Below are positions 16,815 through 49,908 of a DNA stretch of 64,000 bases, piece by piece. The notes under the pieces were generated by a model. That model worked only from the letters and a program-made list of their open reading frames with translations, was not told the origin of the DNA and ran no database searches. The stretch is from Kiritimatiellia bacterium (GTDB lineage: Bacteria; Verrucomicrobiota; Kiritimatiellia; RFP12; JBMNHG01): contig JAZQOE010000124.1 of assembly GCA_045627705.1 (NCBI GenBank), positions 17,865 to 81,864 of the forward strand, given 5' to 3'. The position numbers and the translations under genes were made by a program. Numbering within the stretch: position 1 is the first letter of the stretch; each line of letters opens with the position of its first letter.

Positions 16815-16928
16815 AAAATTCGCTTTGGGTTTGTCAAACGAACATCGGAAGTGCTATCATGACAAACTCTTTGAGATCAGCCGGCGTGCTTCTCGCCGGC
16901 CACTGAACCGCCTATCGAGGAAATAACC

Positions 16929-19193: not shown

Positions 19194-19236
19194 CCCATTT
19201 CCTTTCACAGCTTCCGTATTCCCGCGTGTACCTTGA

Positions 19237-20163: not shown

Positions 20164-20165
20164 CC

Positions 20166-22207: not shown

Positions 22208-22220
22208 CCGCATTCCGAAA

Positions 22221-31345: not shown

Positions 31346-34300
31346 ATGTCGTTCAATAAATCCCGCTCGTGTCGGTTGTTCGCCGGCGCAGTTGCCGCCT
31401 TGGCGGCGTTGTTGCCATCGGTTTCCCGTGGCGATGTCGCATTGTCGGGCCAGTTGCCATCCGGATACTGGACAGACTTGCTTCACCTCGGCTCAAATTT
31501 CAATACCGATGATTTGGTCCAGGGTGGCGACGATTGGCTTGCGGGGTGGGGTGGCCAGGCTAACCAGCACCCTTATCCCGGGCAGAAGTACACCGATCTG
31601 CGGACTTCCGGCTCCACGGCTACTCCGGGTTCCCTTGTCTGGACACCGTCTTCTTTCGATGGTGGCATCTGGCAGCCAAGCAACCGCGATTCATACACGA
31701 AATTCTGGCATGTCTATGTCATCGTGCCGGGGACCAGTCCCCGCGAGGTGTATTTTTATACTCGGCAGGATGACGATGTCCGCGTCTGGAACAATGGCAT
31801 CCTGGCTTTCGAAAGCATCGGCTGGGATAACAATGCCGAGAAGGGGCCTTTCCCCGCAGTATTGGTTCCCGGGCAAAATTCGATAACCATCAGGCTCGAC
31901 GAGGGCACCGGCGGCGACTACATGGCTATCCGTGTAACCGACCGCAATAACAACCCATACAGCGATCTCACCTATTCGCTCGTCCCTAGTCCGGAGTTTT
32001 GCGATCCGCTCGCAGGCATTTCGGGGTTTACCTCGACCAACGCCGCCAAGGTTGCGTTCCTGCCTTCTTTGCCGACTGCCACCGAATACCAGTTGTCGCT
32101 TTCCAATGACCCCGCCGAGCTGGATACCAACGGCTGGCTCGCTTATACCGAGGGCTTGCAGCCTGATTCTATCATCGACTTCCCCAAGCCGGCCACAAGC
32201 CTGGCTTCGATTGCCATCTATGCCTGGTTCCGCACCAATGGGGACGACTCCACCATTGAGTCCGTCTCAAATTCAATCCTCTACAATGTCACCCCTCCCG
32301 TGGCCGTGACAAAGGATATCGTTGTCCCAATCAACCCCGCGGCCGGCCGCGAAATCCTGCCCATCGAAATCGATGCCGGTTCACATGACGACTTTGTCGG
32401 CGTGCGCAGCATGGCGGTCTCCCCCGGCAAGATCACCGGCAGCGGACCCGTCACTCTCACCGTTTACAATTCCCTCGGCGTCGCCGGTACCGCCACGGCC
32501 CAAATTACCGCCGTTCCCGCCGAAGGCCCGCTTCCCCACGGCAATTGGACGACAATGCTCCACCTGGGTACCATTTTCAACCAGGATGACCTTTCGAATT
32601 CCGGCGGCATCGATGCCGACCATCTCGAATCGTATGGCGGACAGGCCAACCAGAAGCCTTACCATGGCCTCACATACGATGGTCTTCCAACGGCCCTGCA
32701 TGGTACCGCTCCGCTCACTTGGACGGCTTCCTACGATTCCGATGGCCACTGGGAGCCTTCCGGCCGCGACAACTATATCAAGTATTGGCATGTCTATCTC
32801 AATGTCCCCGGCCCGACAAACCGTACCGCGCGCTTCAATTTCCTCCATGACGATAACGTCCGCGCCTGGAATAACGGTTCGCTTTTCTACTCCCGAAATT
32901 ACGATGGCGCATGGCATTCCGTCGATACTCCTCTCGTTCCCGGCTTGAACTCCATTACTTTCAAGCTTGAAGAGGGCGGCGGCGGCGACTATTTCGAGGT
33001 CAACATGACCGACACCGCCGGCAATTTCATGGATGATGTCACCTTCCAGCTTGATCCTACTGAGTTCAAGATCGAGAACCCGATTACGGGCAGCGTCGAT
33101 TTCCTCGGCACAAACGCCCTCCGCGTGGCCAAGATGCCACGCGATCCCGGCGCGACTGCCTACCAGTTAACGCTCAGCGGCGATGAGGCTTCGATCGATT
33201 CCGACAATTGGCTCGAATACTTCCCCGGCATGACTCCTTCCGATTTGTTCTCTTTCGCCGAGCCAGCCGCCGACGGTCCGATTACGATCCACGCCTGGAT
33301 GCGTTCCTCCATCGGTACGAACCACTACGAGGGCCCGTCGATCACCTACACCCACGACGTCCCGATCGTCAAAGTGAAGCCGGCCGACCTCGACATCGAC
33401 CCCGTCAACGGCACCACCGTGCTGCCTTCGGATATCGATGATGGCACTTCCGATCCTGTCTCCGGGATCTATTCGCTCTCGGTCGTGCCACCTGTAATCT
33501 ACGAACCCACGGATGTCACGCTCGTCGCGATGAACAACGCCGGCCTCGTTTCCACCGCCACGACCTCGGTCGCCCCGTCGTTCTGGGCGGCTCTCGATGT
33601 CGTCGGCGACGATACCGCATACTCCACCCTCGAAGCCAGCTTCCAGGCCGTCGCCTACGGTTCCCCCGCGGCGACTGCCACGGTGTTCTGCTCGTGGAAT
33701 TTCGGCGATGGTTCCGCCGCCGTCGAAGGCCAGGACCTTTTCTCCACCACGCACCTCTATGATCGCCCCGGCGCATTCGATGTCTCGCTGACGATGACCA
33801 GCGCCCTCGGCGATGTCTCGGTAACCAATATCGTCAAGGCGATCAAGATTCTTGGCGACCGCTTTGTCGCTTCCGCCGATGCCGGCGCAGGCGTTTATCC
33901 GTACACCGACGAAACCCTCGCCAGCTCCGACATCGCCGCCGTAGTCGCCGCCGCGCAGCAGGCTTCCGCCGCCGGCGCCGAAGGCGTGGTCGTCGAGGTC
34001 GGGCCGGGCAGCTACGATCTTACGACGCAGATCGACCTCGTCGAGCCTATCACCCTCCTCGGCGTCGCCGGCCCCGCGGACACGCATCTGCGGCAGACCG
34101 TCGATCAGCTGTGCGTTGTCACCGTCTCCACGAATGCCACCGTCGCCGGTCTCACGCTCCACGGCAAGTTTATCTCCAATGACAACCGCGTTGGCGGCGG
34201 CATCCGCATGACTTCCGGCGTCGCCACCAATATCGTCGTCACCGATTGTACGGGCGGTGGCCACGCCATAGGCCCGCTGTATGGCTCCGCCTATCTCGAT

Positions 34301-36370
34301 GGCGATGCGTACATGGTTGACAGCTCAGTCGTCAACAACCGCAACTGGTACAATGGCGGCGCCCTCTGGATCAAGGGCTCCGCCATCGCGGACCGCTGCG
34401 AAATTGCCTACAACTACGGAAGCGCCCAGCACCACTCCGGCGATGGCGGCGCGGGCGTTCGCATGGAGTCCGGCACCGTCCGCAACTGCTTCATCCACCA
34501 CAATGAATCCATCTACCACGCCGGTGGCGGCGTTCGCATAGACAATGGTCTCCTGGAGAACTGCACGATCGTGGCCAACCAGGTCGGCGCGTCCGACAAT
34601 GTGTCCGGCATGGGCGCCGGTGGCGTCCGCCACAACGGCGGCACCGTCCGCAACTGCATAATCTACGGCAACCATGACTATGCCGGAACCCCGTCCGATT
34701 ACGCCGGTACTGGCGGCGCCACCTATTCCTGCGCCCCCGAACTCGTGAGCGGCACGGGCAACATCGCGCTCGATCCGCTGTTTGCCGATGTCGCGTCGGG
34801 CGACTATCGCCCCCAGGCATCGTCGCCATGCGTCGATTCCGGCACGGCCATCGATCCTTCGGTTGCGCTCGACTTCTCTCTTGGCGCGCGCGTTGTCGAT
34901 GGCAACGGCGATGGCACCCCCGCTATCGACATGGGATGCTTCGAGTACGTCCGCGACACCTCGATCTTCGACTGCTCGTTTGTTGTCGAAGGCGACTCCG
35001 CCGCGCTTGGTTCTCTTGACGCATCCTTCACGGCCACGCTCTACGGAAGCTTTGCCGCCACGTCTTCCGTGACTTGCGCCTGGGATTTCGGCGATGGCTC
35101 CGAATTGGTCACCGGCCACAATCTCTTCGAGGTCGGGCACAAGTACGATTCGCTCGGGCTTTTCACGGTGACCCTCTCCGTGGTCAACTCGCTTGGCGAA
35201 TCGGTCTCCTTCGCCCGCCCCGACTGCATCTGCGTCCTTTCCTCCCAAGTCTATGCCGCGACCAATGGCGCCGCGATCTTCCCGTACGCTACTCCCGAAA
35301 CCGCGGCGACCGACCTCGGCGAGGCGTTCAAGGTCGTGCCGCGCGCATTCGACTGCGGCGCCACTTCCGCCGTTGTCTCGATCGGACCCGGCGAATTCAC
35401 GATTTCGTCGGAGTTCGCGCTTGACAAGCCAATCACCGTCATCGGCTCCGGACGCGACGCCACCCACGTGCGGCAGGTCTCCGACGACCAGCGCGTTTTC
35501 GTGATATCCGATCCCGCCGCGATTGTCTCCAGCCTCACGGTCCATGGCAAATATACCCCGAACAACCGCTGGGGCGGCGGTATCCATCTGACTGGCGGCA
35601 TGGCCACCAATGTCGTCGTCACCGGCTGCACAGGCGGCGGCCACGCGATTGGCGGACTCTGCGGTTCGGTCTATCTCGGCGGCAGCAACGCCACCCTCGT
35701 CGATAGCCTTGTCATCAGCAACCGCTATGATTATAACGGCGGCGGCGTCTGGCTTGAGAGCGACAGCGCGCTCGTGGACCGCTGCGAGATCGCATGGAAC
35801 CGCGGTTCGATGCAGCACCACTCCGGCGACGGCGGCGGCGGCGTCCGCATTTGGGTGGGTACCGTCCGCAACTGCCTCATTCACCACAATACGTCCATCT
35901 TCCATCCGGGTGGCGGCGTCCGCAACTATTTCGGCACGCTCGAGAACTGCACCATCGTCGATAACTCCGTCGAACAGAATGGCATCGGCAATGGCGGGGG
36001 CGTCTTCCAGCAGGGCGGTACCGTCCGCAATTGCATCATCGCCGGCAACCGCTGCGACGATACGAACCAGGGCGGCGTCAATGCTGGTCCCGAAGACTAC
36101 CACATGCACGACAGCCAGTATGTAGCCAACACCTGCGCCCCCGAAGTTCCGGAGGAGAACGGCAACATCCGTCTCGCGCCCGTATTCAAGGACGCCGCGA
36201 ATTGCGACTACCACATCGGCTTCTCCAGCCCGACTGTCGGCGCCGGCTCCTTCGTCGAGTGGATGGACGGCGCCGTCGATCTCGATGGCGAAATCCGCGT
36301 CCTCGGCCGTGCGGTTGACATGGGTTGCTACGAGACCCGCCTCCCCGGTACGCTGATCTTCATCAGATAG
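31346..36370 (+). CDS. giant secreted beta-helix protein, paralog 2 (1674 aa). Signal peptide, two PA14-like domains, Ig-like modules, two beta-helix modules ending in DMGCFE/DMGCYE, and a C-terminal LPGTLIFIR.
   Basis: Signal peptide MSFNKSRSCRLFAGAVAALAALLPSVSRG. PA14-like DLLHLGSNFNTDD...QDDDVRVWNNGILAF...IRLDEGTGGDYMAI, duplicated as TMLHLGTIFNQDD...HDDNVRAWNNGSLFY...FKLEEGGGGDYFEV. Beta-helix and choice-of-anchor-Q-like motifs DPLFADVASGDYRPQASSPCVDSG...IDMGCFEY and VDMGCYETRLPGTLIFIR at the terminus. Confidence 0.8.
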   Translation: MSFNKSRSCRLFAGAVAALAALLPSVSRGDVALSGQLPSGYWTDLLHLGSNFNTDDLVQGGDDWLAGWGGQANQHPYPGQKYTDLRTSGSTATPGSLVWTPSSFDGGIWQPSNRDSYTKFWHVYVIVPGTSPREVYFYTRQDDDVRVWNNGILAFESIGWDNNAEKGPFPAVLVPGQNSITIRLDEGTGGDYMAIRVTDRNNNPYSDLTYSLVPSPEFCDPLAGISGFTSTNAAKVAFLPSLPTATEYQLSLSNDPAELDTNGWLAYTEGLQPDSIIDFPKPATSLASIAIYAWFRTNGDDSTIESVSNSILYNVTPPVAVTKDIVVPINPAAGREILPIEIDAGSHDDFVGVRSMAVSPGKITGSGPVTLTVYNSLGVAGTATAQITAVPAEGPLPHGNWTTMLHLGTIFNQDDLSNSGGIDADHLESYGGQANQKPYHGLTYDGLPTALHGTAPLTWTASYDSDGHWEPSGRDNYIKYWHVYLNVPGPTNRTARFNFLHDDNVRAWNNGSLFYSRNYDGAWHSVDTPLVPGLNSITFKLEEGGGGDYFEVNMTDTAGNFMDDVTFQLDPTEFKIENPITGSVDFLGTNALRVAKMPRDPGATAYQLTLSGDEASIDSDNWLEYFPGMTPSDLFSFAEPAADGPITIHAWMRSSIGTNHYEGPSITYTHDVPIVKVKPADLDIDPVNGTTVLPSDIDDGTSDPVSGIYSLSVVPPVIYEPTDVTLVAMNNAGLVSTATTSVAPSFWAALDVVGDDTAYSTLEASFQAVAYGSPAATATVFCSWNFGDGSAAVEGQDLFSTTHLYDRPGAFDVSLTMTSALGDVSVTNIVKAIKILGDRFVASADAGAGVYPYTDETLASSDIAAVVAAAQQASAAGAEGVVVEVGPGSYDLTTQIDLVEPITLLGVAGPADTHLRQTVDQLCVVTVSTNATVAGLTLHGKFISNDNRVGGGIRMTSGVATNIVVTDCTGGGHAIGPLYGSAYLDGDAYMVDSSVVNNRNWYNGGALWIKGSAIADRCEIAYNYGSAQHHSGDGGAGVRMESGTVRNCFIHHNESIYHAGGGVRIDNGLLENCTIVANQVGASDNVSGMGAGGVRHNGGTVRNCIIYGNHDYAGTPSDYAGTGGATYSCAPELVSGTGNIALDPLFADVASGDYRPQASSPCVDSGTAIDPSVALDFSLGARVVDGNGDGTPAIDMGCFEYVRDTSIFDCSFVVEGDSAALGSLDASFTATLYGSFAATSSVTCAWDFGDGSELVTGHNLFEVGHKYDSLGLFTVTLSVVNSLGESVSFARPDCICVLSSQVYAATNGAAIFPYATPETAATDLGEAFKVVPRAFDCGATSAVVSIGPGEFTISSEFALDKPITVIGSGRDATHVRQVSDDQRVFVISDPAAIVSSLTVHGKYTPNNRWGGGIHLTGGMATNVVVTGCTGGGHAIGGLCGSVYLGGSNATLVDSLVISNRYDYNGGGVWLESDSALVDRCEIAWNRGSMQHHSGDGGGGVRIWVGTVRNCLIHHNTSIFHPGGGVRNYFGTLENCTIVDNSVEQNGIGNGGGVFQQGGTVRNCIIAGNRCDDTNQGGVNAGPEDYHMHDSQYVANTCAPEVPEENGNIRLAPVFKDAANCDYHIGFSSPTVGAGSFVEWMDGAVDLDGEIRVLGRAVDMGCYETRLPGTLIFIR

Positions 36371-36392: not shown

Positions 36393-36439
36393 CGGAGCGC
36401 CGCGAAATGCCCCCGCATTTTCGCGGCGCGCCGTTTTTT
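36393..36439 (+). terminator. rho-independent terminator of giant gene 2 (built from the dispersed palindromic motif)
   Basis: aaaaaaacggagcgccgcgaaatgc-cccc-gcattttcgcggcgcgccg followed by tttttt. Confidence 0.7.
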
Positions 36440-36467
36440 CTTCGCTCGCCAGCGCAATCTTTTCCGC

Positions 36468-36541: not shown

Positions 36542-39500
36542 ATGTCCATGCGTTTCGTTTCGCAAGTGCTCGCGGCGGCGGCCGCTGGCCTTTTCCTTTG
36601 TGCGTCGGCCAAGGCCGATGTCGCGATGACCGGTCCTCTGCCCAATGGGTACTGGACGGACCTCCTCCATCTGGGAGCCAACTTCCAGACCGATATGTTT
36701 ACCTCCAATGGCCCCAACCTTGATACCGACCTTCTTTCTGGTTATGGCGGTGAAGCCAACCAGGAACCTAGCGACGGCCTTGTCTATGCCGGCCTATCGA
36801 GTGTCAAGAGCACATCGCAGGAGCCGAGCGGCCAGCTTACCTGGACGGCGATGCACGATTCCGATGGCATTTGGCAGCCTAGCAATGTCGATAATTACAT
36901 CAAATACTGGCACACATATCTGATTGTTCCAGGCGCCACGGCCCGCGGCGCCAAGATCTACACTCGCCAGGATGACGACCTCCGCATCTGGATCAACGGC
37001 GCAGTTGCCGTCAACAGCCCCGGTTATTCCGACAACGAGAAGGGCCCGTTCGATATTACCCTCCAGCCGGGCATGAATTCGGTTACCATCAAGCTCGTAG
37101 AGGGTGGCGGCGGCGACTACATGGCCGTCCGGATGACCGATACAAATGGCCAGTATTTCGATGATATCACATACGCGTTGTTTCCCGCGAAGCTGACGCT
37201 CGTCAACCCTGTCACCGGCAGCGAAGGCTACATCTCCGGCGATAGCGTCAAGATCTCCAGGTTCCCGTCTGTCGCCGACGCGGTTTCCTACCAGTTCACG
37301 CTTTCCGACGATCCATCGTCCGTTTCCGGCGCCGCGTGGAAGCCGTATGTGAATGGCATGATCCCCGAAGACGAAGTCTCCATCACTCCGCCGGCGGCAA
37401 GCGGCGATGAGGTCACGGTCTATGCGTGGTTCCTCCATTCCGACGGCACCCTTTCCTGCGATTCGGATTCAATCGTCTGGACATCCGCCGCCCCGACGGC
37501 AAAGGCCAAGGCATCGCTCTCGATCCCTATCAATGTCACGGCCGGCACTGTCATTGCGCCCGAACTGGTGGATGACGGCTCCGAAAGCGGCGACATCGGC
37601 ATCTACTCGGTGTCTGTCTCCCCGGACCGCATCTACGGCGACACTGATGTGACGCTCACGGTCATGAACAACGCCGGCGTCATCGCCACCGATACCGTGA
37701 GGGTCTCCCTCTCTTCCAAGCTCGACATCCATGTTTCGAACAGTGGCGACGACACCACCGGCGACGGCACGGTCGGCAACCCATACGCCACGATCCAGAA
37801 GGCGGTCTCCGTGGTTGCGGACGGCGGGGCGATCTACCTGGCCTCCGGCACCTACTTCGACGGAGAGTCGTATCCCTACGCCGTTTCAGGCATCTCCATC
37901 TGCAAGGAACCCGGCGACGCCGGCACTGCCATCCTCGATGGCGGCAACGCTTCCGGCAATCTCTTCACCGTGTCTTCCGGCTCGCTCGCCCTTGTCGACC
38001 TCGTTATGATGGGCACGACCGACGAACTCGTCTTCGCCACGCAATCCGCCCTCGCCGTCACAAACTGCGTCTTCACCCAGACCCAGCAGAACCGCGTTGG
38101 CTATAAGACGGGCGCCATCGAGCTGAACACGCATTCCTCCCTCGACGCATTCGGCTCCACCTTCCGCGACATGACCGTGACGGCAGTGATCCGCCTGTCC
38201 GGCAGCAATTCGGAAGGCAGCGTTGTCACCCTGCGCAACTGCCTGTTCGAGAACAACGCTGTCGGTTGCGACCTCGGCAGCAACAACCATGAGGGCAGCC
38301 TGATCTATACCCGCGTCAATGGCGGCTCGGCCTTCAACTTCTACGACACGGTCTTCCGCAACAACTCCACGTATGATTGGGGAGTACACGACGCATACAT
38401 GTCCCCGATCGTCTATTCGGACTTCACGCCCCTGGACATCGACCGCTGCCAGTTCATCGGCAACAGCGGCGGCAACCTGATCGGCATCTGCTACGCCAAC
38501 GGCGACGTCCGCAACTCGCTCTTCGTCGAAAATCGCACGCCTTACTCCATCGCGCACGGCTATTCCTCCACCGTCTCGTTCCGCAACTGCACCTTCGTGC
38601 GTGGCACGGGCGGTTTCACCGGCTACAGGGCCCATTCCGAACTCTACAACTGCATCCTCTACGGGCTGGACCACTTGAACCATCGGGATCCGCATGGTGC
38701 CAGTGCCGATTATCTGACGCTCCATGATTCCTTCATCTACGGCATCGACATGGCTTCCAGCGCCGAGCTCGGCTACTTTATCGGCGGCAGCTCGAATGTG
38801 ACGATCGGCACCGACCCGCTGCTCGCCAATGTGGACGTCCTTCCGTCCGACGCCGGCTTCGATGCCCGCCCGCTTCCCTACAGCCCCGTGATCGACGCCG
38901 GCGACAACTCCGCCATCCGCGCCAGCGCGACCGATCTCGCCGGCAGCCCCCGCGTGGCCAACAACTCGGACGCCTCCTCCGCGACAGTCGATCTCGGATG
39001 CTACGAATCGCTCTTCCACGCCGCCATCCAGCCGACCTTCCAGTTCCCGGTCCCCGGATCGCTCAGCGGCTACCGCGGCGTGACATACCAGGTTCCTGTC
39101 ACCATTTCCCCAGCCGTTTCCGGTTCCGTCTCCGCCCAGATCAGCTACGGCGAGGGCGTGACCGGTCCCGCCACCCTTGAGTTCCCCAATGGCGCAGGTC
39201 CCGTCACCCTCGAGCTCGAACTCCTCTCCGGCGACGCCACTTCCGCTCGCGTCACCATCACCGAAAGCGGCATCTCCCAGGGTGTGCTTCCCGGCAGATT
39301 CGATGTGTTCATGGACGACATCGTGATCACCGTTGGCGGCGTGACGAACATCTACGTCCGCGAAGGCACCAGCTTTGACATTCCGGTCTCCCTCGCCCTC
39401 GAGGGCGCAGTCGCCCCTGGCGACGTAGCCTTCGCGATCGACTCGGTTTCGGGATCCGGTACCAGCCAGGCCTCATGGATCGGCGGCGAAGCCGTGGTTC

Positions 39501-42500
39501 CCGCAGGCGCACACAGTTCGACCGGCTCCATCCATATCGAGGCCGGCAGCGGCATCAACGAAATCGTCCTTACCTCCGGCGCGACCTTCGCCGAGACCGG
39601 CACCGGGACAGTCGCGCTACGCGTCATCGCCTATCCCGGCTTCCTCGTGGTGGATCCGGAGAATGGCGATGACGATGCGAGCGGCACCATCGGAAATCCG
39701 ATGCGCACTATCGACCGTGCTCTGTCGGTACTTTCCGCGGGCGATGAAATCCACCTGCTTCCGGGCACTTACAATGCTTCCAACGTGGCATTCCCCATTG
39801 AGCCAGGCACGATCGCCCTCGTAGGCTGCGACTCTACCGGCGCTCTCGCCGAAGACAGCTCGCTGTGCGTCATCGATGGCGCGAACGCCGTGAAGAACCT
39901 CGTGAAGTATGTCGGAGTCTCCGGTTCCTCCACCGGCCGCATCGCGAACGTGTGGCTGCGCAATTCCATGGAGGAAGCAGTCTATTGCGAAGACTCCGAT
40001 GTCGTCGTGAGCAACGACTTCTTCACGCAGTCCGCCCCCAAGGGCGAGAATGGCGGCGCCCTCCGCGTCCACAATATCAGCCATGTCGAAGCCGATGATT
40101 GCTGCTTCAGTGGCATGGTCCGCCGCGCCGTCGTCAATTGCACGGCGGTTGACTCATCGGCCGCAAAGAGTTTCACGGCGCGCCGCTCGGTCTTCATCGA
40201 CAACACGAACTACCAGGCTTCGATCGGGGCGAACGATGGCGGTCCGTTTACAATCACCGTCGAGGATTCCGACTTCATCCGCAACTGCGGCAATGCCAAT
40301 ACGGGCGTCCATGACGCCTACGCTTCCGCCGTCGCTTATGTCAACAACGACCACCTGATCATGGATCGCTGCCGCTTCTTCGGCAACACCGGCAACCATA
40401 TAATCGGCCAGGAATACATGGGCAACTACACCTGCCGTATTTCGAACTCGCTGTTCGTCGAGAATAACAACAACAAGTCCGCCTTCCACGGCTATTCCGG
40501 TCACATCGAGATCCACAACTGCACCTTCCTGCGCAACTCCGGCGGCTATGCCGGCCGCATTATCACGACGGCCATATACAATGGCATTTTCGTTGATGAT
40601 GGCGCACTTTCCAAGGCCGATACGGGAGATGGCGATGAATCCTCGAGAATCCAGCTCCACGACTGCATTGTCCACAATATTACCGGGGGCCAGAGATTCA
40701 ACGCCGCCGCCAGCACCGGCGTCGTGGATGTCGAACCCAAGCTGGCGAACGCTGGAGTCGCATGGGACGCCGAAGGCTTTGACGCCCGCCCGCTTCCCTA
40801 CAGCCCTGCAATCGATGCGGGCGACAACGCCTTCGTCCAGGGCGAGTACGACCTTGCCGGCAATCCCCGCATTGCCGACAACACGGATTCCGGCTCCGCT
40901 GTCGTGGATTTCGGCTGCTACGAGTCGCTTTTCCATGCGGAAGTTGAGCCGACCTTCCGCGTTCCGCTGCAAGGCTCCATCGCCGGCTACCGCGGCGTGA
41001 CTTACTCGATCCCGATATCTATCGCCCCCGCCGTGTCCGGTCCCGTCGAGGCGGTTGTCACATACGGTCCCGGCCTTGCCGGCCCGGAGACACTCTCCTT
41101 TGAGGATGGCGCCGATACAGTTATCCTCGCGCTCGAGGTGCTCGATTCCGATGCGACCTTTGCGCAGGTCGTCATCAGCGAGTCTGGCACCGAGCACGGC
41201 ATCCTCGATGGCGTCTATGACATCTTCATGGATGATCTGGTCGTGTCTGTTGAAGGAAAGTTGAACTTCTTCGTCCGCGGAGGAGCCGAGATTGACATCC
41301 CGTTCTCCCTGGCGCTTGATGGCGCTGTCGCCCCCGGTGACGTTGCGTTCACGGTTTCGGCGATCCAGGGCGATGGTACCAGCACGGCCGAATGGGTCGG
41401 CGGCGAACCGCTTATCCCCTCCGGCTATCACAGCTCGACTGGCGCAATCCACGTGGTTGGCGGGTCCGGGCTGAACACCGTGCGAGTCACAACCTCCGCT
41501 TCCGCCTTCGCCGAAACGGATCAGCCGATTGCCGATATCGGGATCGTAGCCCACCCTGGCTACCTCTATGTCGATCCCGTGAACGGAAGCAATGCGAATA
41601 TCGGTTCGCTGGAGCAGCCCCTCGCGACCATCGGCTTCGCGCTCTCCGTGCTAAACGCTGGCGACGAGGTCAGGCTGCTTCCCGGCACCTACTCGGCCGC
41701 CGCCGAAGCCTTCCCGTACCAGCCCGGCATGATTCGGATTGTCGGTTGCGATGCGACTGGCGCTCCCGCCGAAGATCCATCGCTGTGCGTGATCGATGGC
41801 GGCAATGCCGTTGCAAGCCTCTTCCGCTACGAGCTCGTTTCCGGTGATATGGCTGGGCATATCGCGAATGTCTGGTTGCGCGAATCCATCTCCCAGGCCA
41901 TCTACTGCATTGATTCCGATCTCGTGGTAAGCAACGCCTTCTTCACGCAGGGCGTCGGCAACCTCGACGAGTGCGGTGGCATCCGTGCCCACAATGTCTG
42001 CAATACCGAAATGATCGACTGCTGCTTCAGCGGTATGGTGCGCCGCGCCGCGGTCCAGTGTTCCTCCGATGGCGGTACCGGCCCACTGGTTGTCCGTAAC
42101 TGCCAGTTCATCGACAACACGCTGGGTTACGCCTCCGTCGCGTACTACGACGGTGGCAATCGCGGGTTCTCGGCCACGCTTGTCGATTGCGATTTCATCC
42201 GCAATGTCGGCCAGCCCGGCCGCGGTCTCCCCGACTGCTCCGCCTGCGCAGCCGCCTATGTGAACGACAACGCCCTGTACATCGATCGCTGCCGCTTCCT
42301 CGGCAACGGCGGCAACCAGGTGATTGGCGGACGCAACACGCCGTGTTCCATCGCGAACTCGCTCTTCGCCGGCAATAACACGACGGACAGCAACTTCAAG
42401 GGCTGGAACACCAGGCCGCCTGTCGTGAACTGCACATTCGTCGGCAACAGCGGCGGCTACGATGGCTACGGCTTCAGCCCATACTTCCGCAACTGCGTGT

Positions 42501-42877
42501 TCTACAAGGATGGCGCAATCAGCAAGGATAGCAACGATAGCGGTCACTCCTACATCCGCGACTCGCTGGTCTTCGGCGATCCGGTCGAGGGCGACCTCGG
42601 CTATGTCGAGGAAGCCGTCGGAACGGTTGTGACCGGCGTTGACCCGCTCCTCAAGAACGCGGATGTCGCCTGGGATGCCGAAGGCTTCGACGCCCATCTG
42701 AAGAATAACAGCCCGGCTATCGATGCCGGCAACGTCGATCTGGTCTCCGGCGATCTCGACCTCGATGGCACCGCCCGCCTGAAGTATGGCCACACGAAGA
42801 AGTTTGGCCTCAAGGTCGATTTTGGATGCTACGAAGCCACCGTCCCCGCCGCCGGCACGCTTATCTTCCTCAAGTAG
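36542..42877 (+). CDS. giant secreted beta-helix protein, paralog 3 (2111 aa). Signal peptide, PA14-like domain, Ig-like modules, three beta-helix modules (two forming a tandem ~640-aa duplication), and C-terminal ...AAGTLIFLK.
   Basis: Signal peptide MSMRFVSQVLAAAAAGLFLCASAKA. PA14-like DLLHLGANFQTD...QDDDLRIWINGAVAV...IKLVEGGGGDYMAV. Repeated module boundaries VDLGCYESLFHAAIQPTFQFPVPG (~38990) and VDFGCYESLFHAEVEPTFRVPLQG (~40905). Terminal VDFGCYEATVPAAGTLIFLK. Confidence 0.8.
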   Translation: MSMRFVSQVLAAAAAGLFLCASAKADVAMTGPLPNGYWTDLLHLGANFQTDMFTSNGPNLDTDLLSGYGGEANQEPSDGLVYAGLSSVKSTSQEPSGQLTWTAMHDSDGIWQPSNVDNYIKYWHTYLIVPGATARGAKIYTRQDDDLRIWINGAVAVNSPGYSDNEKGPFDITLQPGMNSVTIKLVEGGGGDYMAVRMTDTNGQYFDDITYALFPAKLTLVNPVTGSEGYISGDSVKISRFPSVADAVSYQFTLSDDPSSVSGAAWKPYVNGMIPEDEVSITPPAASGDEVTVYAWFLHSDGTLSCDSDSIVWTSAAPTAKAKASLSIPINVTAGTVIAPELVDDGSESGDIGIYSVSVSPDRIYGDTDVTLTVMNNAGVIATDTVRVSLSSKLDIHVSNSGDDTTGDGTVGNPYATIQKAVSVVADGGAIYLASGTYFDGESYPYAVSGISICKEPGDAGTAILDGGNASGNLFTVSSGSLALVDLVMMGTTDELVFATQSALAVTNCVFTQTQQNRVGYKTGAIELNTHSSLDAFGSTFRDMTVTAVIRLSGSNSEGSVVTLRNCLFENNAVGCDLGSNNHEGSLIYTRVNGGSAFNFYDTVFRNNSTYDWGVHDAYMSPIVYSDFTPLDIDRCQFIGNSGGNLIGICYANGDVRNSLFVENRTPYSIAHGYSSTVSFRNCTFVRGTGGFTGYRAHSELYNCILYGLDHLNHRDPHGASADYLTLHDSFIYGIDMASSAELGYFIGGSSNVTIGTDPLLANVDVLPSDAGFDARPLPYSPVIDAGDNSAIRASATDLAGSPRVANNSDASSATVDLGCYESLFHAAIQPTFQFPVPGSLSGYRGVTYQVPVTISPAVSGSVSAQISYGEGVTGPATLEFPNGAGPVTLELELLSGDATSARVTITESGISQGVLPGRFDVFMDDIVITVGGVTNIYVREGTSFDIPVSLALEGAVAPGDVAFAIDSVSGSGTSQASWIGGEAVVPAGAHSSTGSIHIEAGSGINEIVLTSGATFAETGTGTVALRVIAYPGFLVVDPENGDDDASGTIGNPMRTIDRALSVLSAGDEIHLLPGTYNASNVAFPIEPGTIALVGCDSTGALAEDSSLCVIDGANAVKNLVKYVGVSGSSTGRIANVWLRNSMEEAVYCEDSDVVVSNDFFTQSAPKGENGGALRVHNISHVEADDCCFSGMVRRAVVNCTAVDSSAAKSFTARRSVFIDNTNYQASIGANDGGPFTITVEDSDFIRNCGNANTGVHDAYASAVAYVNNDHLIMDRCRFFGNTGNHIIGQEYMGNYTCRISNSLFVENNNNKSAFHGYSGHIEIHNCTFLRNSGGYAGRIITTAIYNGIFVDDGALSKADTGDGDESSRIQLHDCIVHNITGGQRFNAAASTGVVDVEPKLANAGVAWDAEGFDARPLPYSPAIDAGDNAFVQGEYDLAGNPRIADNTDSGSAVVDFGCYESLFHAEVEPTFRVPLQGSIAGYRGVTYSIPISIAPAVSGPVEAVVTYGPGLAGPETLSFEDGADTVILALEVLDSDATFAQVVISESGTEHGILDGVYDIFMDDLVVSVEGKLNFFVRGGAEIDIPFSLALDGAVAPGDVAFTVSAIQGDGTSTAEWVGGEPLIPSGYHSSTGAIHVVGGSGLNTVRVTTSASAFAETDQPIADIGIVAHPGYLYVDPVNGSNANIGSLEQPLATIGFALSVLNAGDEVRLLPGTYSAAAEAFPYQPGMIRIVGCDATGAPAEDPSLCVIDGGNAVASLFRYELVSGDMAGHIANVWLRESISQAIYCIDSDLVVSNAFFTQGVGNLDECGGIRAHNVCNTEMIDCCFSGMVRRAAVQCSSDGGTGPLVVRNCQFIDNTLGYASVAYYDGGNRGFSATLVDCDFIRNVGQPGRGLPDCSACAAAYVNDNALYIDRCRFLGNGGNQVIGGRNTPCSIANSLFAGNNTTDSNFKGWNTRPPVVNCTFVGNSGGYDGYGFSPYFRNCVFYKDGAISKDSNDSGHSYIRDSLVFGDPVEGDLGYVEEAVGTVVTGVDPLLKNADVAWDAEGFDAHLKNNSPAIDAGNVDLVSGDLDLDGTARLKYGHTKKFGLKVDFGCYEATVPAAGTLIFLK

Positions 42878-42904
42878 CAATCCATCGCCAACCTAAAATA
42901 ATCG

Positions 42905-42947
42905 GTGCGCCGCGGAATGCCCAACATTCCGCGGCGCACTGTTTTCG
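42905..42947 (+). terminator. rho-independent terminator of giant gene 3
   Basis: gtgcgccgcggaatg-cccaa-cattccgcggcgcac followed by tgttttcg. Confidence 0.7.
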
Positions 42948-43009: not shown

Positions 43010-43133
43010 CAGATTGTCGGCTGGATGGACATTCGGTTGAGGTTCAAAAATTGAAAAGGAATCATGAATCAAGTTGCCGTGGGGGCGGGTCTGTGGCAAA
43101 ATGGAATTCCGTGCGGATGCGTGTCCCCCGTGG

Positions 43134-43176
43134 CATTTCGCGGCGCGCCGCTTGTTTTTGCGGCGCGCCGTTTTTG
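43134..43176. repeat. tandem pair of the dispersed palindromic motif in the carB 5' region
   Basis: catttcgcggcgcgccgcttgttttt then tgcggcgcgccgtttttg. The left arm is a degenerate copy of the terminator-type element (gtgtcccccgtggcatttcgcgg). Confidence 0.5.
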
Positions 43177-43218
43177 TGCGCTCACCACTGGAACCCCTCA
43201 ACCGCGGAAAGGTCTTGC

Positions 43219-46200
43219 ATGGAAGCGTCGTCGAAGATTCAGAAAGTCCTCATCATTGGCTCCGGCCCCATCGTCATCGGCCAGGCGTGCGAGTTCGACT
43301 ATTCCGGTACGCAGGCTTGCAAGGCGCTTCGCGCATGCGGCTACAAGGTCGTTCTCGTAAATTCAAATCCCGCGACGATCATGACTGACCCCGTGATGGC
43401 CGACGCGACCTACATCGAGCCGCTCAATGCCGACCGTCTCGAGCAAATCATCGCGAAGGAACGCCCCGATGCAATCCTCCCGAATCTCGGTGGTCAGACA
43501 GGTCTCAACCTTTCGATGGAACTTGCGAAGAAGGGCATCCTCGACCGCTACGGCGTGAAGGTCATCGGTGTCAACCTCGATGCCATCGAACGCGGCGAGG
43601 ACCGCGAGGTCTTCAAGGACACGATGCAAAAGCTCGGTATCGAAACGCCAAAGAGCGGCATCGTCCATACTGTCGAGGAGGCGAAGAATCTCGTCCTCGA
43701 TGAGATCGGCTTCCCCGTGGTCGTCCGCCCCGCCTACACCATGGGCGGTTCCGGCGGCGGTTTCTGCTACAACGTCGAAGAGCTTGAGACGATTTGCGCG
43801 CGTGGTCTCGACGCTTCGCTCACGCACCAGTGCCTTATCGAGGAGTCCATCCTCAACTGGGAGGAACTCGAGGTCGAAGTCGTGCGCGACGCGAAGAACC
43901 AGATGATCTCGGTGTGCTTCATCGAGAACATCGACGCGGTCGGCGTCCACACTGGCGACAGCTTCTGCGCCGCGCCGTTCCTGACAATTTCGAAGGACCT
44001 CGAGGAGCGCCTGAAGCGCGACGCATTCAAGATCGTCGAGGCAATCGGCGTGATCGGCGGCTGCAACGTGCAGTGGGCGCATGATCCGAAGACCGGCCGC
44101 GTCGTAATCATCGAGATCAATCCGCGCACTTCCCGCTCGTCCGCGCTCGCATCGAAGGCGACAGGCTTCCCGATTGCGCTCGTCTCCGCCAAACTCGCGG
44201 CGGGCATGACGCTCGACCAGCTTCCATACTGGCGCGACGGGTCGCTTGAGAAGTACACGCCCGATGGCGACTACATCGTTCTTAAGTTCGCCCGATGGGC
44301 CTTTGAGAAGTTCCGCGCCGTCGAAGACCATCTCGGCACGCAGATGAAGGCCGTGGGCGAGGTGATGTCGATCGGCAAGACCTACAAGGAGACCTTCCAG
44401 AAGGCGATTCGCGCACTGGAGCGCGGCCGCGCCGGACTCGGTTTCGCAAAGGACTTCCACGAGCGCTCCCTCGACGATTTGCTGAAGATGCTCGCGATCG
44501 CGAATTCCGAGCGTCACTTCCAGATGTACGAGGCGCTCCGCAAGGGCGCGACCAACGAACAGATCACACACCTTACCGGCGTGAAGGATTACTTCGTCCA
44601 GCAGATGCGCGAACTCGTCGAGGAAGAGGATCGTATCCTCCAGTCGATCGGCCGTCTCCCGCCCGACGACCAACTCGTGCAGGCGAAGAAGGACGGCTTC
44701 AGCGACAAGTACCTTGCGCAGATCCTGAAGGTTTCAGAGAAGTCCATCCGCGACCGCCGCACCGCCCTCGGTTGCGTCGAGAAGTGGTTCGCCGTCCCCG
44801 TTAGCGGCGCCGAAAACCAGGCGTACTACTATTCGACGTACAACTGGGACAATGCTTCCGGCAACTCTGGCAATTCCGCCTTTGGCGAGGTCAAGGTTTC
44901 CGCGAATCCCAAGAAGGTCATGATCCTCGGCGGCGGCCCGAACCGAATCGGCCAGGGTATCGAGTTCGACTACTGCTGCACGCATGCGGCGATGGCGATG
45001 CGCCAGGCCGGATACGAGACCATAATGGTCAACTGCAATCCCGAGACGGTCTCCACCGACTACGATACTTCCGACAAGCTTTACTTCGAGCCTGTGACGG
45101 TCGAAGACGTCCTGCAGATCTACCAGTCGGAAAAGCCAGAGGGCGTGATCGTGCAGTTTGGCGGACAGACTCCGCTCAACATCGCGCGTGGTCTCGAGGA
45201 GGCAGGCTGCCACATCCTTGGCACTTCCGTCGATTCCATTGACGCCGCCGAAGACCGCGATCTATTCCACTCCATCATGGACCGCCTCGGCATCCCCATG
45301 CCGGAGTCGATGATGGCGAGCGATCTCGACGCGGCGCTTTCCTGCGCGGCCAAGCTCGGCTACCCGCTCATCATCCGTCCGTCGTTCGTTCTTGGCGGAC
45401 GCGGCATGGAGGTGATCTACGACGAGATCATGCTCCGCGAGTATGTCGCAAAAGCCGTGGGTGTGACTCCCGACCGTCCGCTCTACCTCGACCGCTTCCT
45501 GCACCATGCGCTCGAATGCGAGGCGGATGCGCTTTCCGATGGCACAGACATCTTCATTCCTGCCATCATGCAGCACATCGAGCTTGCTGGCATCCACTCT
45601 GGCGACTCCGCATGCGTGCTGCCTCCGGTGTCGATCTCCGACAGCAACCGCGACACCATTCTGGACTACACGCGCCGCATCGCTTCCGAGCTGAAGGTCG
45701 TTGGCTTGATGAACATGCAGTTCGCGATCGAAGACGACAAGGTCTATGTGATCGAGGCCAATCCGCGCGCCTCGCGCACTGTCCCGTTGGTGTCGAAGGT
45801 CGGCGGCGTTTCGATGGCGCGTATCGCGACGCAGCTCATGATCGGTCAGACGGTGAAATCGCTCGGCCTGAATCATCGCCATGTCGTGCCGTATTTCGGC
45901 GTGAAGGAAGCGGTGCTTCCATTCGAGAAGTTCCCGGAAGTCGATCCCGTCCTCGGACCGGAAATGCGTTCGACGGGCGAAGTGCTTGGCCTCGCGAATA
46001 CCTTTGGCCTTGCCTATTTCAAGAGCCAGGAAGCGGTTGGTTCACCGTTGCCGACCGAGCCAGGTGGAAAGCTGCTCATCTCGCTTTCCGAGAAGCAGCC
46101 CGATGCTGTCCGTGCGGCGAAGAATTTCGCGAGCCTCGGCTTCGAGCTTGTTGGGACGACGGGCACTGTCGCCTTCCTGCGCAAGAATGGCGTCGAAGCC

Positions 46201-46470
46201 ACGGAAATCGCAAAGATCGGCGAGGGCCGCCCAGACGTGCTCGACGCGATCAAGAACCGCGAAGTGAATCTGATCGTGAATACGCCGTCAGTGCGCCGCG
46301 ACGCGCGCGCCGACGATTCGCGCATCCGCCAGGCCGCGATCAAGTACCGCGTGCCTTACCTCACCACCATCGCGGCCGCGCTCGCGGCTTCGGAGGGCAT
46401 CCGCGCCGCGCGTGACGGCTTGGGTGCCGTGAATTCCCTGCAGAATTACCACGCGACCATCCGCGGGTAG
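43219..46470 (+). CDS. carB: carbamoyl-phosphate synthase large subunit
   Basis: KVLIIGSGPIVIGQACEFDYSGTQACKALRACGYKVVLVNSNPATIMTDP. Two ATP-grasp halves (second starts KVMILGGGPNRIGQGIEFDYCC). C-terminal MGS-like domain. Start chosen at MEASSKIQK (1083 aa). The listed ORF has a 5' extension. Confidence 0.9.
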   Translation: MEASSKIQKVLIIGSGPIVIGQACEFDYSGTQACKALRACGYKVVLVNSNPATIMTDPVMADATYIEPLNADRLEQIIAKERPDAILPNLGGQTGLNLSMELAKKGILDRYGVKVIGVNLDAIERGEDREVFKDTMQKLGIETPKSGIVHTVEEAKNLVLDEIGFPVVVRPAYTMGGSGGGFCYNVEELETICARGLDASLTHQCLIEESILNWEELEVEVVRDAKNQMISVCFIENIDAVGVHTGDSFCAAPFLTISKDLEERLKRDAFKIVEAIGVIGGCNVQWAHDPKTGRVVIIEINPRTSRSSALASKATGFPIALVSAKLAAGMTLDQLPYWRDGSLEKYTPDGDYIVLKFARWAFEKFRAVEDHLGTQMKAVGEVMSIGKTYKETFQKAIRALERGRAGLGFAKDFHERSLDDLLKMLAIANSERHFQMYEALRKGATNEQITHLTGVKDYFVQQMRELVEEEDRILQSIGRLPPDDQLVQAKKDGFSDKYLAQILKVSEKSIRDRRTALGCVEKWFAVPVSGAENQAYYYSTYNWDNASGNSGNSAFGEVKVSANPKKVMILGGGPNRIGQGIEFDYCCTHAAMAMRQAGYETIMVNCNPETVSTDYDTSDKLYFEPVTVEDVLQIYQSEKPEGVIVQFGGQTPLNIARGLEEAGCHILGTSVDSIDAAEDRDLFHSIMDRLGIPMPESMMASDLDAALSCAAKLGYPLIIRPSFVLGGRGMEVIYDEIMLREYVAKAVGVTPDRPLYLDRFLHHALECEADALSDGTDIFIPAIMQHIELAGIHSGDSACVLPPVSISDSNRDTILDYTRRIASELKVVGLMNMQFAIEDDKVYVIEANPRASRTVPLVSKVGGVSMARIATQLMIGQTVKSLGLNHRHVVPYFGVKEAVLPFEKFPEVDPVLGPEMRSTGEVLGLANTFGLAYFKSQEAVGSPLPTEPGGKLLISLSEKQPDAVRAAKNFASLGFELVGTTGTVAFLRKNGVEATEIAKIGEGRPDVLDAIKNREVNLIVNTPSVRRDARADDSRIRQAAIKYRVPYLTTIAAALAASEGIRAARDGLGAVNSLQNYHATIRG

Positions 46471-48596: not shown

Positions 48597-48753
48597 ATGG
48601 CGAAGAGGCAAATGCTATCCTCCCGCCATGTTCAACGTACGGACCATCTCTCGCCGACTTGGCGCAAACGCGACAATTCCGTTTTCCTTTTGCCAGTGCG
48701 GCAAATGGTATGGTACGATTCTCAACAAAATCACAATCATTCGGGAGTTCATC

Positions 48754-49812: not shown

Positions 49813-49908
49813 CCACCGCTTCGCTTGCGGCCCGCACGGTTGACGCCGGGCGGGCCGTTTCTATTTTGGCCCCGATTGACACAATCTCGCGCGAGGACTG
49901 TTCCTGAC

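What the first reader, a model, noticed from the sequence alone, without database searches (positions are those of the whole stretch)
38990..42850. Tandem intragenic duplication of a ~1.92-kb (~640-aa) Ig + beta-helix module inside giant gene 3
Residues starting VDLGCYESLFHAAIQPTFQFPVPGSLSGYRGVTYQVPVTISPAVSGSV... (~38990) and VDFGCYESLFHAEVEPTFRVPLQGSIAGYRGVTYSIPISIAPAVSGPV... (~40905) open two collinear ~640-aa copies. The copies share long identical stretches: IAYPGFLVVDPENG / VAHPGYLYVDPVNG, LLPGTY, SLCVIDG.NAV, IANVWLR.S, DCCFSGMVRRA, MDRCRF.GN and FDARPLPYSPAIDAGDN. The same module occurs once or twice in the other paralogs. Such long direct repeats are substrates for homologous recombination. 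This suggests module-number variation, and hence length or antigenic variation, of these surface proteins.
Basis: seen in the sequence. Interest (0 to 1): 0.6.

Follow-up and report, generated by a model that had tools for sequence, protein, structure and literature searches.

The report
Old tandem module duplication in surface protein
A giant secreted protein of an uncultured Kiritimatiellia bacterium really does contain two back-to-back copies of a 640-residue "two Ig-like domains plus beta-helix" module, but the copies are ancient and share only about 60% of their DNA, so this is an ordinary fixed domain duplication and not a recombination hotspot for surface variation.

Summary
ORF 36542..42877 (2111 aa) holds two collinear modules, 38987-40903 and 40904-42814 (639 and 637 aa). 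Their alignment scores 1608, against 50±6 for shuffled sequence. Each module is a pair of Ig-like beta-sandwiches followed by a DUF1565 right-handed beta-helix that ends in a choice-of-anchor Q tail. A third beta-helix lies upstream.

The copies are 50% identical in protein and 60.5% in DNA. Third codon positions match at 47%, against 40% expected by chance. The longest shared exact DNA run is 18 nt, and no 150-nt window exceeds 71% identity. That is far too diverged for efficient RecA-dependent recombination. Both copies keep the family-conserved residues, and dN/dS is about 0.4.

The closest relatives (51% identity, 1468 and 1449 aa) have exactly one module fewer. Copy A, copy B and the relative's single module form a 300/300 clade that is unresolved inside. 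Copy A's tail is of the "internal" type, which places the duplication joint near the GFDA motif (about nt 38866 and 40786).

Across 1.84 billion representative proteins the family has about 47 members. Most have one module, about 11 have two, and none has more. The two-module state arose several times independently. Module number therefore varies over evolutionary time, not dynamically. Interest is low.

The parts
36542..42877 (+). Giant gene 3: a 2111-aa secreted or surface protein. Domain order: signal peptide, PA14-like domain, Ig0, beta-helix 1, Ig pair A, beta-helix 2, Ig pair B, beta-helix 3, short C-terminal tail.
   Evidence: ORF list, translation, domain map with home-built HMMs, Pfam and NCBIfam.
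36542..36619 (+). N-terminal signal peptide, aa 1-26 (MSMRFVSQVLAAAAAGLFLCASAKAD...).
   Evidence: Read directly from the translation. It has a hydrophobic core and an A-x-A site. No predictor was run.
36620..37186 (+). PA14-like beta-sandwich domain, aa 27-215, a putative lectin.
   Evidence: AlphaFold model with pLDDT 91.9. The best Foldseek hits are PA14 sugar-binding domains of MpIBP, Flo1/5 and Epa (E about 1e-4, TM 0.42-0.48). Pfam gives no PA14 hit.
37187..37723 (+). Ig0 region, aa 216-394. It is shared with paralogues g1 and g2 and is not homologous to the module's Ig pair by BLASTP.
37742..39010 (+). Beta-helix 1 (DUF1565 + choice-of-anchor Q tail of the 'internal' type), aa 401-823. 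It is a distant third copy of the helix half (31-36% aa identity to helices 2 and 3).
38987..40903 (+).
40904..42814 (+).
39011..39661 (+). Ig pair A, aa 824-1040: two Ig-like beta-sandwiches with no Pfam family.
39662..40927 (+). Beta-helix 2, aa 1041-1462. The core is of the 'second-helix' type and the tail is of the 'internal' type.
40928..41581 (+). Ig pair B, aa 1463-1680, 54% identical to Ig pair A.
41582..42838 (+). Beta-helix 3, aa 1681-2099, 48-49% identical to helix 2. Its 'terminal'-type tail groups with the tail of the one-module relative P0002 in 299 of 300 bootstraps.
38855..38866 (+). GFDA codons at the end of the helix-1 core: the inferred left joint of the duplicated segment.
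   Evidence: Inference from the switch in tail type.
40775..40786 (+). GFDA codons at the end of the helix-2 core: the inferred novel joint made by the duplication. Upstream, helix 2 resembles helix 3; downstream, it resembles helix-1-type tails.
   Evidence: (families D8 and D14).
42683..42694 (+). GFDA codons at the end of the helix-3 core: the inferred right joint.
39067..39084 (+). Longest exact DNA run shared by the two copies (18 nt, CGGCTACCGCGGCGTGAC). Its partner lies at 40984-41001.
42839..42874 (+). C-terminal tail TVPAAGTLIFLK. The motif G-T-h-h-x-h-[RK] is shared by all three giant paralogues in the window and by most family members.
42903..42941 (+). Terminator-like hairpin (17-pair stem followed by a T-run) just after the stop codon.
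   Evidence: This is a consensus scan only.

Best explanation
Gene 36542..42877 encodes a secreted or cell-surface multidomain protein of a Kiritimatiellia bacterium. Its ancestral architecture was PA14-like lectin, Ig0, beta-helix, Ig pair, beta-helix, C-terminal tail.

A single in-frame tandem duplication of about 1.92 kb enlarged it. The event was most likely an unequal exchange between the paralogous choice-of-anchor Q tails of helix 1 and helix 2, joining at or near the conserved GFDA motif. The duplicated cassette was [internal tail, Ig pair, beta-helix core].

The event is ancient, roughly as old as the split from the nearest sampled one-module relatives. Both copies have since diverged to 50% aa and 60% nt identity under purifying selection. 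The result is a fixed three-helix protein, not a recombinationally unstable repeat.

By inference, each beta-helix acts as a separate glycan-binding or glycan-processing unit, spaced by the rigid Ig pairs. The extra module would then add or diversify a ligand specificity.

What is shown: the duplication, its age, the retention of conserved residues, the fold assignments and the family distribution. What is inferred: the crossover mechanism, the exact joint and the biochemical role.
For: **The duplication is real.** The alignment scores 1608 against 50±6 for shuffles and is collinear over 635 columns.

**It is old.**
- Nucleotide identity is 60.5%. Third-position identity is 47% against 40% expected by chance. 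NG86 dS is 1.1 (near saturation) and dN is 0.44.
- The longest identical DNA run is 18 nt.
- No window of elevated identity exists.

**Both copies are maintained.** Helices 1, 2 and 3 keep 34-35 of 37 family-conserved helix positions. Each Ig pair keeps 23 of 27. This matches the one-module relative P0002.

**A module was gained.**
- The nearest relatives, P0002 (1468 aa, 51% identity, 70% coverage) and P0008 (1449 aa), have the same order of domains minus one module.
- The NJ clade {helix 2, helix 3, P0002 helix 2} has 300/300 support, and helix 1 + P0002 helix 1 has 300/300.
- One module is the commonest state in the family, including outgroups.

**The joint lies near GFDA.**
- After GFDA, helix 2 carries the 'internal' tail (RPLPYSP...DLAG.PR.A.N.D..VDxGCYESLFHA). 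It never groups with helix 3 there (0/300).
- Helix 3 groups with the terminal tail of P0002 (299/300).
- The best DNA matches flank the joint: family D8 at 38848-38918 vs 40768-40838 (80%) and family D14 at 40747-40787 vs 42655-42695 (85%).

**Fold and family.** DUF1565 scores 77 bits against a 20.3 cutoff. Choice-of-anchor Q scores 66.5 against 25. Each matches three stretches. The AlphaFold and Foldseek results agree.
Against: - The order of events is unresolved. A-B, A-P0002 and B-P0002 identities are all 51-52%. Bootstraps inside the trio conflict: for the helix core they split 146, 112 and 42 of 300, and in the six-module alignment the helix half favoured A+P0002 in 177 of 200. The Ig part is unresolved.
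- The duplication could therefore predate the split from P0002, with a later module loss in that lineage.
- The tail of helix 2 is no closer to this gene's own helix-1 tail (66%) than to the internal tails of other proteins (66-67%). The tail-type switch could reflect constraint on any tail that precedes an Ig pair, and not the original joint.
- P0002 is not syntenic with this locus, so strict orthology is not shown.
- No function was tested. PDB sequence matches cover only the N-terminal cap of the helix.
- The module model has a mean pLDDT of only 70.8, and its last 70 residues are unmodelled.
Confidence: 0.75

Rival explanations
1. The two 1.9-kb direct repeats are active substrates for homologous recombination. 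Module number, and hence protein length or antigenicity, would vary within populations.
For: - The repeats are direct, adjacent and in frame (1917 and 1911 nt).
- recA is present in the window at 48628..49812.
- Module number does differ among family members.
- An 18-nt identical run in register (39067 and 40984) could in principle support rare RecA-independent slippage that removes exactly one module.
Against: - Nucleotide identity is 60.5%, synonymous sites are near saturation, and the maximum identical run is 18 nt.
- There are no conversion tracts.
- Published requirements are more than 40 bp of identity and a roughly 45,000-fold drop by 21% divergence (PMC4824099).
- No family member has more than two modules, and the module pairs compared within two-module proteins are at most 61% identical in protein.
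Confidence: 0.04
2. The two-module state is ancestral to the g3/P0002/P0008 group. The one-module relatives would then have arisen by in-register deletion between the two copies, so this gene is the retained form and not the derived one.
For: - P0002's single module resembles copy A in the first 150 columns of the module alignment (76, 51 and 71% against 66, 49 and 59% for copy B) and in the helix half of that alignment (A+P0002 in 177 of 200 bootstraps).
- It resembles copy B in its tail (299/300 and 200/200). A chimera left by an A/B deletion would look like this.
- A, B and P0002 are equidistant.
Against: - Positional constraint explains the same pattern. The tail before the C-terminus must be the terminal type, and the head follows helix 1.
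- P0002, P0008 and the outgroups P0003 and g1 are all one-module, so loss would have to be repeated or placed deep in the tree.
- In the Ig half of the module alignment A+B was the commonest grouping (91/200). In the wider helix alignment the core gave A+P0002 146, A+B 112 and B+P0002 42 of 300, so nothing is resolved.
Confidence: 0.17
3. The second module was not duplicated in place. It was imported from another paralogue by non-allelic recombination (domain shuffling between family genes).
For: - The genome carries several paralogues with the same module. In this window that is g1 (11253..16742-); the related MAG has five loci.
- Shuffling of other modules is evident: g2 has a doubled PA14-like + Ig0 unit.
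Against: - Copies A and B are each other's closest relatives within this genome (51%, against 38-39% to g1's module).
- They fall in one 300/300 clade with the P0002 module.
- The period is exact and in register, with the same junction type on both sides.
Confidence: 0.03
4. The repeat is an assembly artefact of a metagenome-assembled contig.
For: The source is a MAG-type contig of 86.5 kb, seen only once.
Against: - Assemblers collapse or duplicate near-identical sequence, not copies that are 40% diverged.
- The ORF is intact over 6.3 kb and has family-typical ends.
- The same three-helix layout occurs in about 10 other independent representatives.
Confidence: 0.01

Closest known systems
DUF1565 (PF07602) right-handed beta-helix proteins with a choice-of-anchor Q tail (NF041518), including the Leptospira LIC10774/LIC10365 surface proteins
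   Same: All three helices match DUF1565 and choice-of-anchor Q above the curated cutoffs. The N-terminal helix cap motif (VDPxNGxD...P..TI..A...GD.I.LLPGTY) is shared with PL9 lyases and phage tailspikes.
   Different: The LIC10774 equivalog cutoff is not reached (74 bits against 380). Here the helix is reiterated three times in one chain, separated by an Ig-pair domain that has no Pfam model. The protein starts with a PA14-like domain.
AlgE1-7 mannuronan C-5 epimerases of Azotobacter vinelandii (recalled from memory: a paralogous family with one or two beta-helical A modules and a variable number of R modules)
   Same: Both are paralogous families of secreted proteins in which a whole beta-helix module occurs once or twice per chain, interspersed with smaller beta modules. 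The AlgE4 A-module is a Foldseek hit (2pyg, E 3.9e-4).
   Different: There is no detectable sequence homology. No RTX or R modules and no T1SS signal are present. Catalytic activity is untested here.
Repeat-number-variable surface proteins (recalled from memory: streptococcal alpha C/Rib, staphylococcal SasG/Aap and Bap, and the MpIBP RTX adhesin with its Ig-like repeats)
   Same: Both have in-frame tandem repeats of beta-sandwich-containing units in a surface protein. The N-terminal PA14-like fold matches the MpIBP PA14 lectin.
   Different: Those repeats are nearly identical at the DNA level, numerous and polymorphic between strains. Here there are only two copies, 60% identical in DNA, with a unit of 1.9 kb.
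Chlamydial polymorphic membrane proteins (Pmp) and autotransporter passenger beta-helices
   Same: Both come from the PVC superphylum, form multigene families and have long beta-helices with FxxN-like rungs (seen by eye).
   Different: There is no Chlam_PMP Pfam hit and no autotransporter beta-barrel. The protein ends in a 7-residue hydrophobic tail instead.

Membership tests
DUF1565 (PF07602) | Score above the Pfam gathering threshold | tested here: met
   77.1 bits against a cutoff of 20.3, with 3 stretches.
Choice-of-anchor Q domain (NF041518) | Score above the NCBIfam cutoff, at the C-terminal end of each helix | tested here: met
   66.5 bits against a cutoff of 25, with 3 stretches. The best stretch, aa 1416-1462, ends at the VDxGCYE motif.
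LIC10774/LIC10365 surface protein (NF047854, equivalog) | Score above the equivalog cutoff over the full model | tested here: not met
   74 bits against a cutoff of 380. Only profile positions about 55-117 are matched.
PA14 lectin domain | Sequence match to the Pfam PA14 model | tested here: not met
   No PA14 hit even at E up to 10.
PA14 lectin domain | PA14 beta-sandwich fold | tested here: inconclusive
   The model has pLDDT 91.9. The top 8 Foldseek PDB hits are PA14 sugar-binding domains, but TM is only 0.42-0.48 and E about 1e-4.
PA14 lectin domain | Ca2+/sugar-binding Asp-Asp plus Asn site | not tested
   D118, D119 and N126 are invariant in alignment A3. Their equivalence to the PA14 site was not checked structurally.
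PL9 / Pel9A-like pectate lyase (PF22842) | Score above the gathering threshold and presence of catalytic residues | tested here: inconclusive
   The whole protein scores 34.9 bits against 25.2, but no single stretch passes. The PDB match to PL9 structure 5olq covers only the cap, query residues 222-276. Catalytic residues were not examined.
Recombinationally active (copy-number-variable) tandem repeat surface protein | Near-identical DNA repeats with identical tracts longer than the minimal processing segment | tested here: not met
   60.5% nt identity and a longest run of 18 nt. The requirement is more than 40 bp (PMC4824099).
Recombinationally active (copy-number-variable) tandem repeat surface protein | Copy-number polymorphism among close strains | not testable with these tools
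   No relative closer than 51% was found in the protein, genome or metagenome collections. All proteins looked up are singletons at 90% identity.
Recombinationally active (copy-number-variable) tandem repeat surface protein | Repeat unit is a multiple of three, so gain or loss keeps the frame | tested here: met
   The units are 1917 and 1911 nt.
Chlamydial Pmp (PF02415) | Pfam Chlam_PMP repeat match and a C-terminal autotransporter barrel | tested here: not met
   No hit at E up to 0.01. The protein ends 12 residues after the last helix tail.

The most novel reading that the evidence does not exclude
The [internal tail, Ig pair, beta-helix] cassette may be a self-contained evolutionary building block of a small family that was found here mainly in Kiritimatiellia MAGs. 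The cassette appears to have been duplicated independently several times, in at least g3, P0022, P0019, P0011 and P0033. It may always recombine at the conserved choice-of-anchor Q joint. On this reading, one-module and two-module proteins would differ in glycan specificity. The family's conserved 7-residue C-terminal tail, G-T-h-h-x-h-[RK], would be an undescribed surface-sorting signal.
Probability: 0.2. Interest if true: 0.4.

Novelty: new member of a known kind. Interest (0 to 1): 0.2.

Why it matters
It matters little for recombination or antigenic variation, because the repeat is too old and too diverged to act as a hotspot. Its modest value is descriptive.
- It documents the architecture and history of an uncharacterised family of giant surface proteins in Kiritimatiellia, a group known for degrading complex glycans.
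- The proteins combine a PA14-like domain, Ig-like domains and several beta-helices.
- The analysis defines an Ig-pair linker domain that has no Pfam model.
- It shows that whole 640-residue modules have been gained repeatedly in this family.
- It flags a conserved C-terminal tail that may be a sorting tag.

These points could guide annotation and the choice of constructs for biochemical work.

Tried and rejected
- **Tandem Repeats Finder** found nothing. The period exceeds its 500-nt limit and the copies are too diverged.
- **BLASTP of the whole protein against itself** suppressed the off-diagonal hits. I cut the protein into segments instead.
- **Resolving the order of duplication and speciation** failed with NJ bootstraps on the whole module, the Ig part and the helix core. 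The trio remains an unresolved trichotomy.
- **Showing that the helix-2 tail derives specifically from this gene's helix-1 tail** failed. It is equally close to other proteins' internal tails, so only the tail type is informative.
- **Synteny with the closest relative P0002** is absent.
- **An exact-sequence look-up of P0001's contig** returned nothing.
- **Searches for closer relatives to test copy-number polymorphism** found none in the protein clusters, the GTDB species genomes or the JGI metagenome contigs. The best non-self hits were 51% in the first two searches and 32% in the metagenome contigs.
- **Pfam on the isolated N, Ig0 and Ig-pair domains** at E up to 10 gave only noise.
- **Literature searches** for the family and for the C-terminal tail found nothing relevant.
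- **Rejected explanations**: assembly artefact, import from paralogue g1, and membership of the Pmp/autotransporter family.

Full report

ORF 36542..42877 (+) encodes a 2111-aa protein with an N-terminal signal-peptide-like sequence. The motif VDxGCYE occurs three times, at aa 816, 1455 and 2092 (nt 38987, 40904 and 42815). It delimits two units of 639 and 637 aa.

The two units align collinearly, with 324 identities in 635 columns and 15 gap columns. The local score is 1608, against 50.4±6.4 (maximum 68) for 100 shuffles. The DNA repeat finder independently reports many segments spaced 1908-1932 nt apart.

**2. What are the units?**

Pfam DUF1565 (77 bits, cutoff 20.3) and NCBIfam choice-of-anchor Q (66.5 bits, cutoff 25) each match three stretches.

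Segment-wise BLASTP and home-built HMMs give this layout:

| Region | Residues |
|---|---|
| Signal peptide | 1-26 |
| N domain | 27-215 |
| Ig0 | 216-394 |
| Beta-helix 1 | 401-823 |
| Ig pair A | 824-1040 |
| Beta-helix 2 | 1041-1462 |
| Ig pair B | 1463-1680 |
| Beta-helix 3 | 1681-2099 |
| Tail | 12 residues |

An AlphaFold model of copy A (mean pLDDT 70.8) shows two beta-sandwiches (res 15-216) and then a beta-helix (res 220-565). Its Foldseek hits are tandem Ig-like, Calx-beta and FnIII pairs, plus beta-helix proteins such as the AlgE4 A-module and the P22 tailspike. The profile search of PDB sequences matches only the helix cap of a phage tailspike and of a PL9 lyase.

The N domain models well (pLDDT 91.9). 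Its best matches are PA14 sugar-binding domains of adhesins, although Pfam sees no PA14. 'Ig + beta-helix' is therefore correct.

Helix 1 is a more distant third copy of the helix half, at 31-36% identity.

**3. How old is the duplication, and is it a recombination substrate?**

Codon-aligned, the copies are 50% identical in protein and 60.5% in DNA. Identity by codon position is 64%, 70% and 47%. Composition alone predicts 40% identity at third positions, so synonymous sites are almost saturated. NG86 gives dS 1.1 and dN 0.44.

The longest identical DNA run is 18 nt and the longest identical peptide is 11 aa. No 150-nt window exceeds 71% identity, so there is no sign of recent gene conversion.

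For comparison, RecA-dependent exchange in B. subtilis needs more than 40 bp of identity. It falls about 45,000-fold by about 21% divergence (PMC4824099). These copies are about 40% diverged. recA is present in the window, but the substrate is poor.

Both copies keep the family-conserved residues: 34-35 of 37 in the helices and 23 of 27 in the Ig pairs. This matches a one-module relative, so neither copy is decaying.

**4. Relatives**

A search of 5.8 billion protein clusters finds only six relatives. The closest is P0002 from a Kiritimatiellia MAG. It is 1468 aa, 51% identical and covers 70% of the query. Its domain order is the same minus one module. Its locus is not syntenic.

Scans of GTDB species genomes and of metagenome contigs find no closer relative. 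All proteins of this organism that were looked up, RecA included, are singletons at 90% identity. Population-level copy-number variation is therefore untestable here.

In NJ bootstraps, helix 1 pairs with P0002 helix 1 (300/300). Helices 2 and 3 form a 300/300 clade with P0002 helix 2, but the order inside that clade is unresolved. The duplication is about as old as the split from the nearest sampled relatives. Loss in those relatives cannot be excluded. Parsimony favours gain, because the one-module state is the commonest and is present in the outgroups.

**5. Where is the joint?**

Family members have two kinds of choice-of-anchor Q tail:
- an 'internal' type that precedes an Ig pair (RP.PYSP...DLAG..R.A.N.D...VDLGCYESLFHA);
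- a 'terminal' type that precedes the C-terminus (HL.NNSPAIDAGN...LDLDGTARLKYG...VDxGCYEA).

Helix 2 has a second-helix-type core and an internal-type tail. After GFDA it never groups with helix 3 (0/300), whereas helix 3 groups with the terminal tail of P0002 (299/300).

This fits an unequal exchange between the tails of helix 1 and the ancestral helix 2 at or near GFDA (nt 38855-38866, 40775-40786 and 42683-42694).

There is a caveat. The helix-2 tail is no closer to this gene's own helix-1 tail than to the internal tails of other proteins. Functional constraint could therefore mimic this signal.

**6. Family-wide view**

A profile of the Ig pair searched against 1.84 billion representative proteins finds only 47 at E ≤ 1e-10. 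Domain mapping gives this picture:
- Most members have helix, Ig pair, helix (one module).
- About 11 have two modules.
- A few start with an extra Ig pair.
- None has more than three helices.

In several two-module proteins the duplicated units are each other's best match. Examples are P0022 helices 2 and 3 (40%), P0011 helices 1 and 2 (61%), and P0019 helices 2 and 3 (44%). This indicates independent duplications, all of them old.

Module number therefore does vary, but on an evolutionary timescale. The pattern looks like domain accretion in a paralogous family, as recalled for the AlgE epimerases. It does not look like the near-identical, polymorphic repeats recalled for alpha C/Rib, SasG/Aap or MpIBP.

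**7. Likely function (inferred)**

The evidence points to a surface-exposed, glycan-directed protein (adhesin and/or polysaccharide-active). It rests on the following:
- a Sec signal;
- a PA14-like putative lectin;
- Ig-like spacers;
- three pectate-lyase-fold helices;
- a conserved short hydrophobic C-terminal tail;
- carbohydrate-active neighbours. Here these are an MGH1-like glycoside hydrolase (GH) and a SASA esterase. At the P0002 locus they are BNR, NagA/NagB-like proteins and GH92.

The extra module would plausibly add a third binding or catalytic unit. None of this was tested.

**8. Verdict**

The 'recombination and antigenic variation' interpretation is not supported. The feature is an ordinary, ancient, fixed intragenic module duplication in an uncharacterised protein family. 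Novelty: new member of a known kind. Interest: about 0.2.

Noticed in passing
window 42854-42874, 36350-36367 and 11256-11276(-); L001 5617..9576: All three giant paralogues in the window, and nearly all family representatives, end in a 7-residue tail G-[TSA]-h-h-x-h-[RKQ] (for example GTLIFLK and GTLIFIR). So does an unrelated FG-GAP protein next to P0002. This may be a lineage-specific C-terminal sorting or anchoring tag. No description was found in the literature searched.
   Followed up: partly
window 31424-32512 and 32513-33595 (gene 31346..36370): The neighbouring giant gene has its own intragenic tandem duplication of a [PA14-like + Ig0] unit, at 41% aa identity over about 355 residues. 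Gene 11253..16742(-) has an extra Ig0 copy at 28% identity.
   Followed up: partly
window 36620-37186: The N-terminal domain has no Pfam hit, yet it models at pLDDT 91.9 as a PA14-like lectin fold. D118, D119 and N126 are invariant, which recalls the PA14 Ca2+/sugar site.
   Followed up: partly
window 39011-39661 and 40928-41581: The Ig-pair linker domain (about 217 aa, two beta-sandwiches) has no Pfam model. Only 47 representatives reach E ≤ 1e-10 among 1.84 billion proteins, and every full-length one mapped has it next to a DUF1565 helix.
   Followed up: yes
L005 8729-13911: A paralogue in the other Kiritimatiellia MAG (GCA_050950285.1) also has three helices and two modules. Its third helix is split over three reading frames (12578-13216, 13341-13691 and 13750-13911). 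This could be indel errors in a long-read assembly, or a pseudogene.
   Followed up: no
window 42903-42941; also 36419-36443 and 43140-43171: A 17-pair GC-rich hairpin with a T-run follows the stop codon of gene 3. Similar GCGGCGCGCCGC palindromes with T-runs follow gene 31346..36370 and lie at 43140-43171, inside the 5' end of the listed carB ORF (43051..46470) and upstream of where its CarB homology begins (aa 57). They are probably terminators.
   Followed up: no
window 16857..20531(-) and 29327..31249(+): Two large ORFs (1224 and 640 aa) next to the giant genes have no Pfam or NCBIfam match.
   Followed up: no
whole window: The context is chromosomal housekeeping and not a mobile element. 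It includes FtsK (22119..24917), carB (43051..46470), recA (48628..49812), a prepilin peptidase (49825..50805), a T2SS/T4P ATPase (7145..8737), TruB and NAD synthase. RecA and the giant proteins are all singletons at 90% identity among about 15 billion proteins, so this lineage has been sampled only once.
   Followed up: partly
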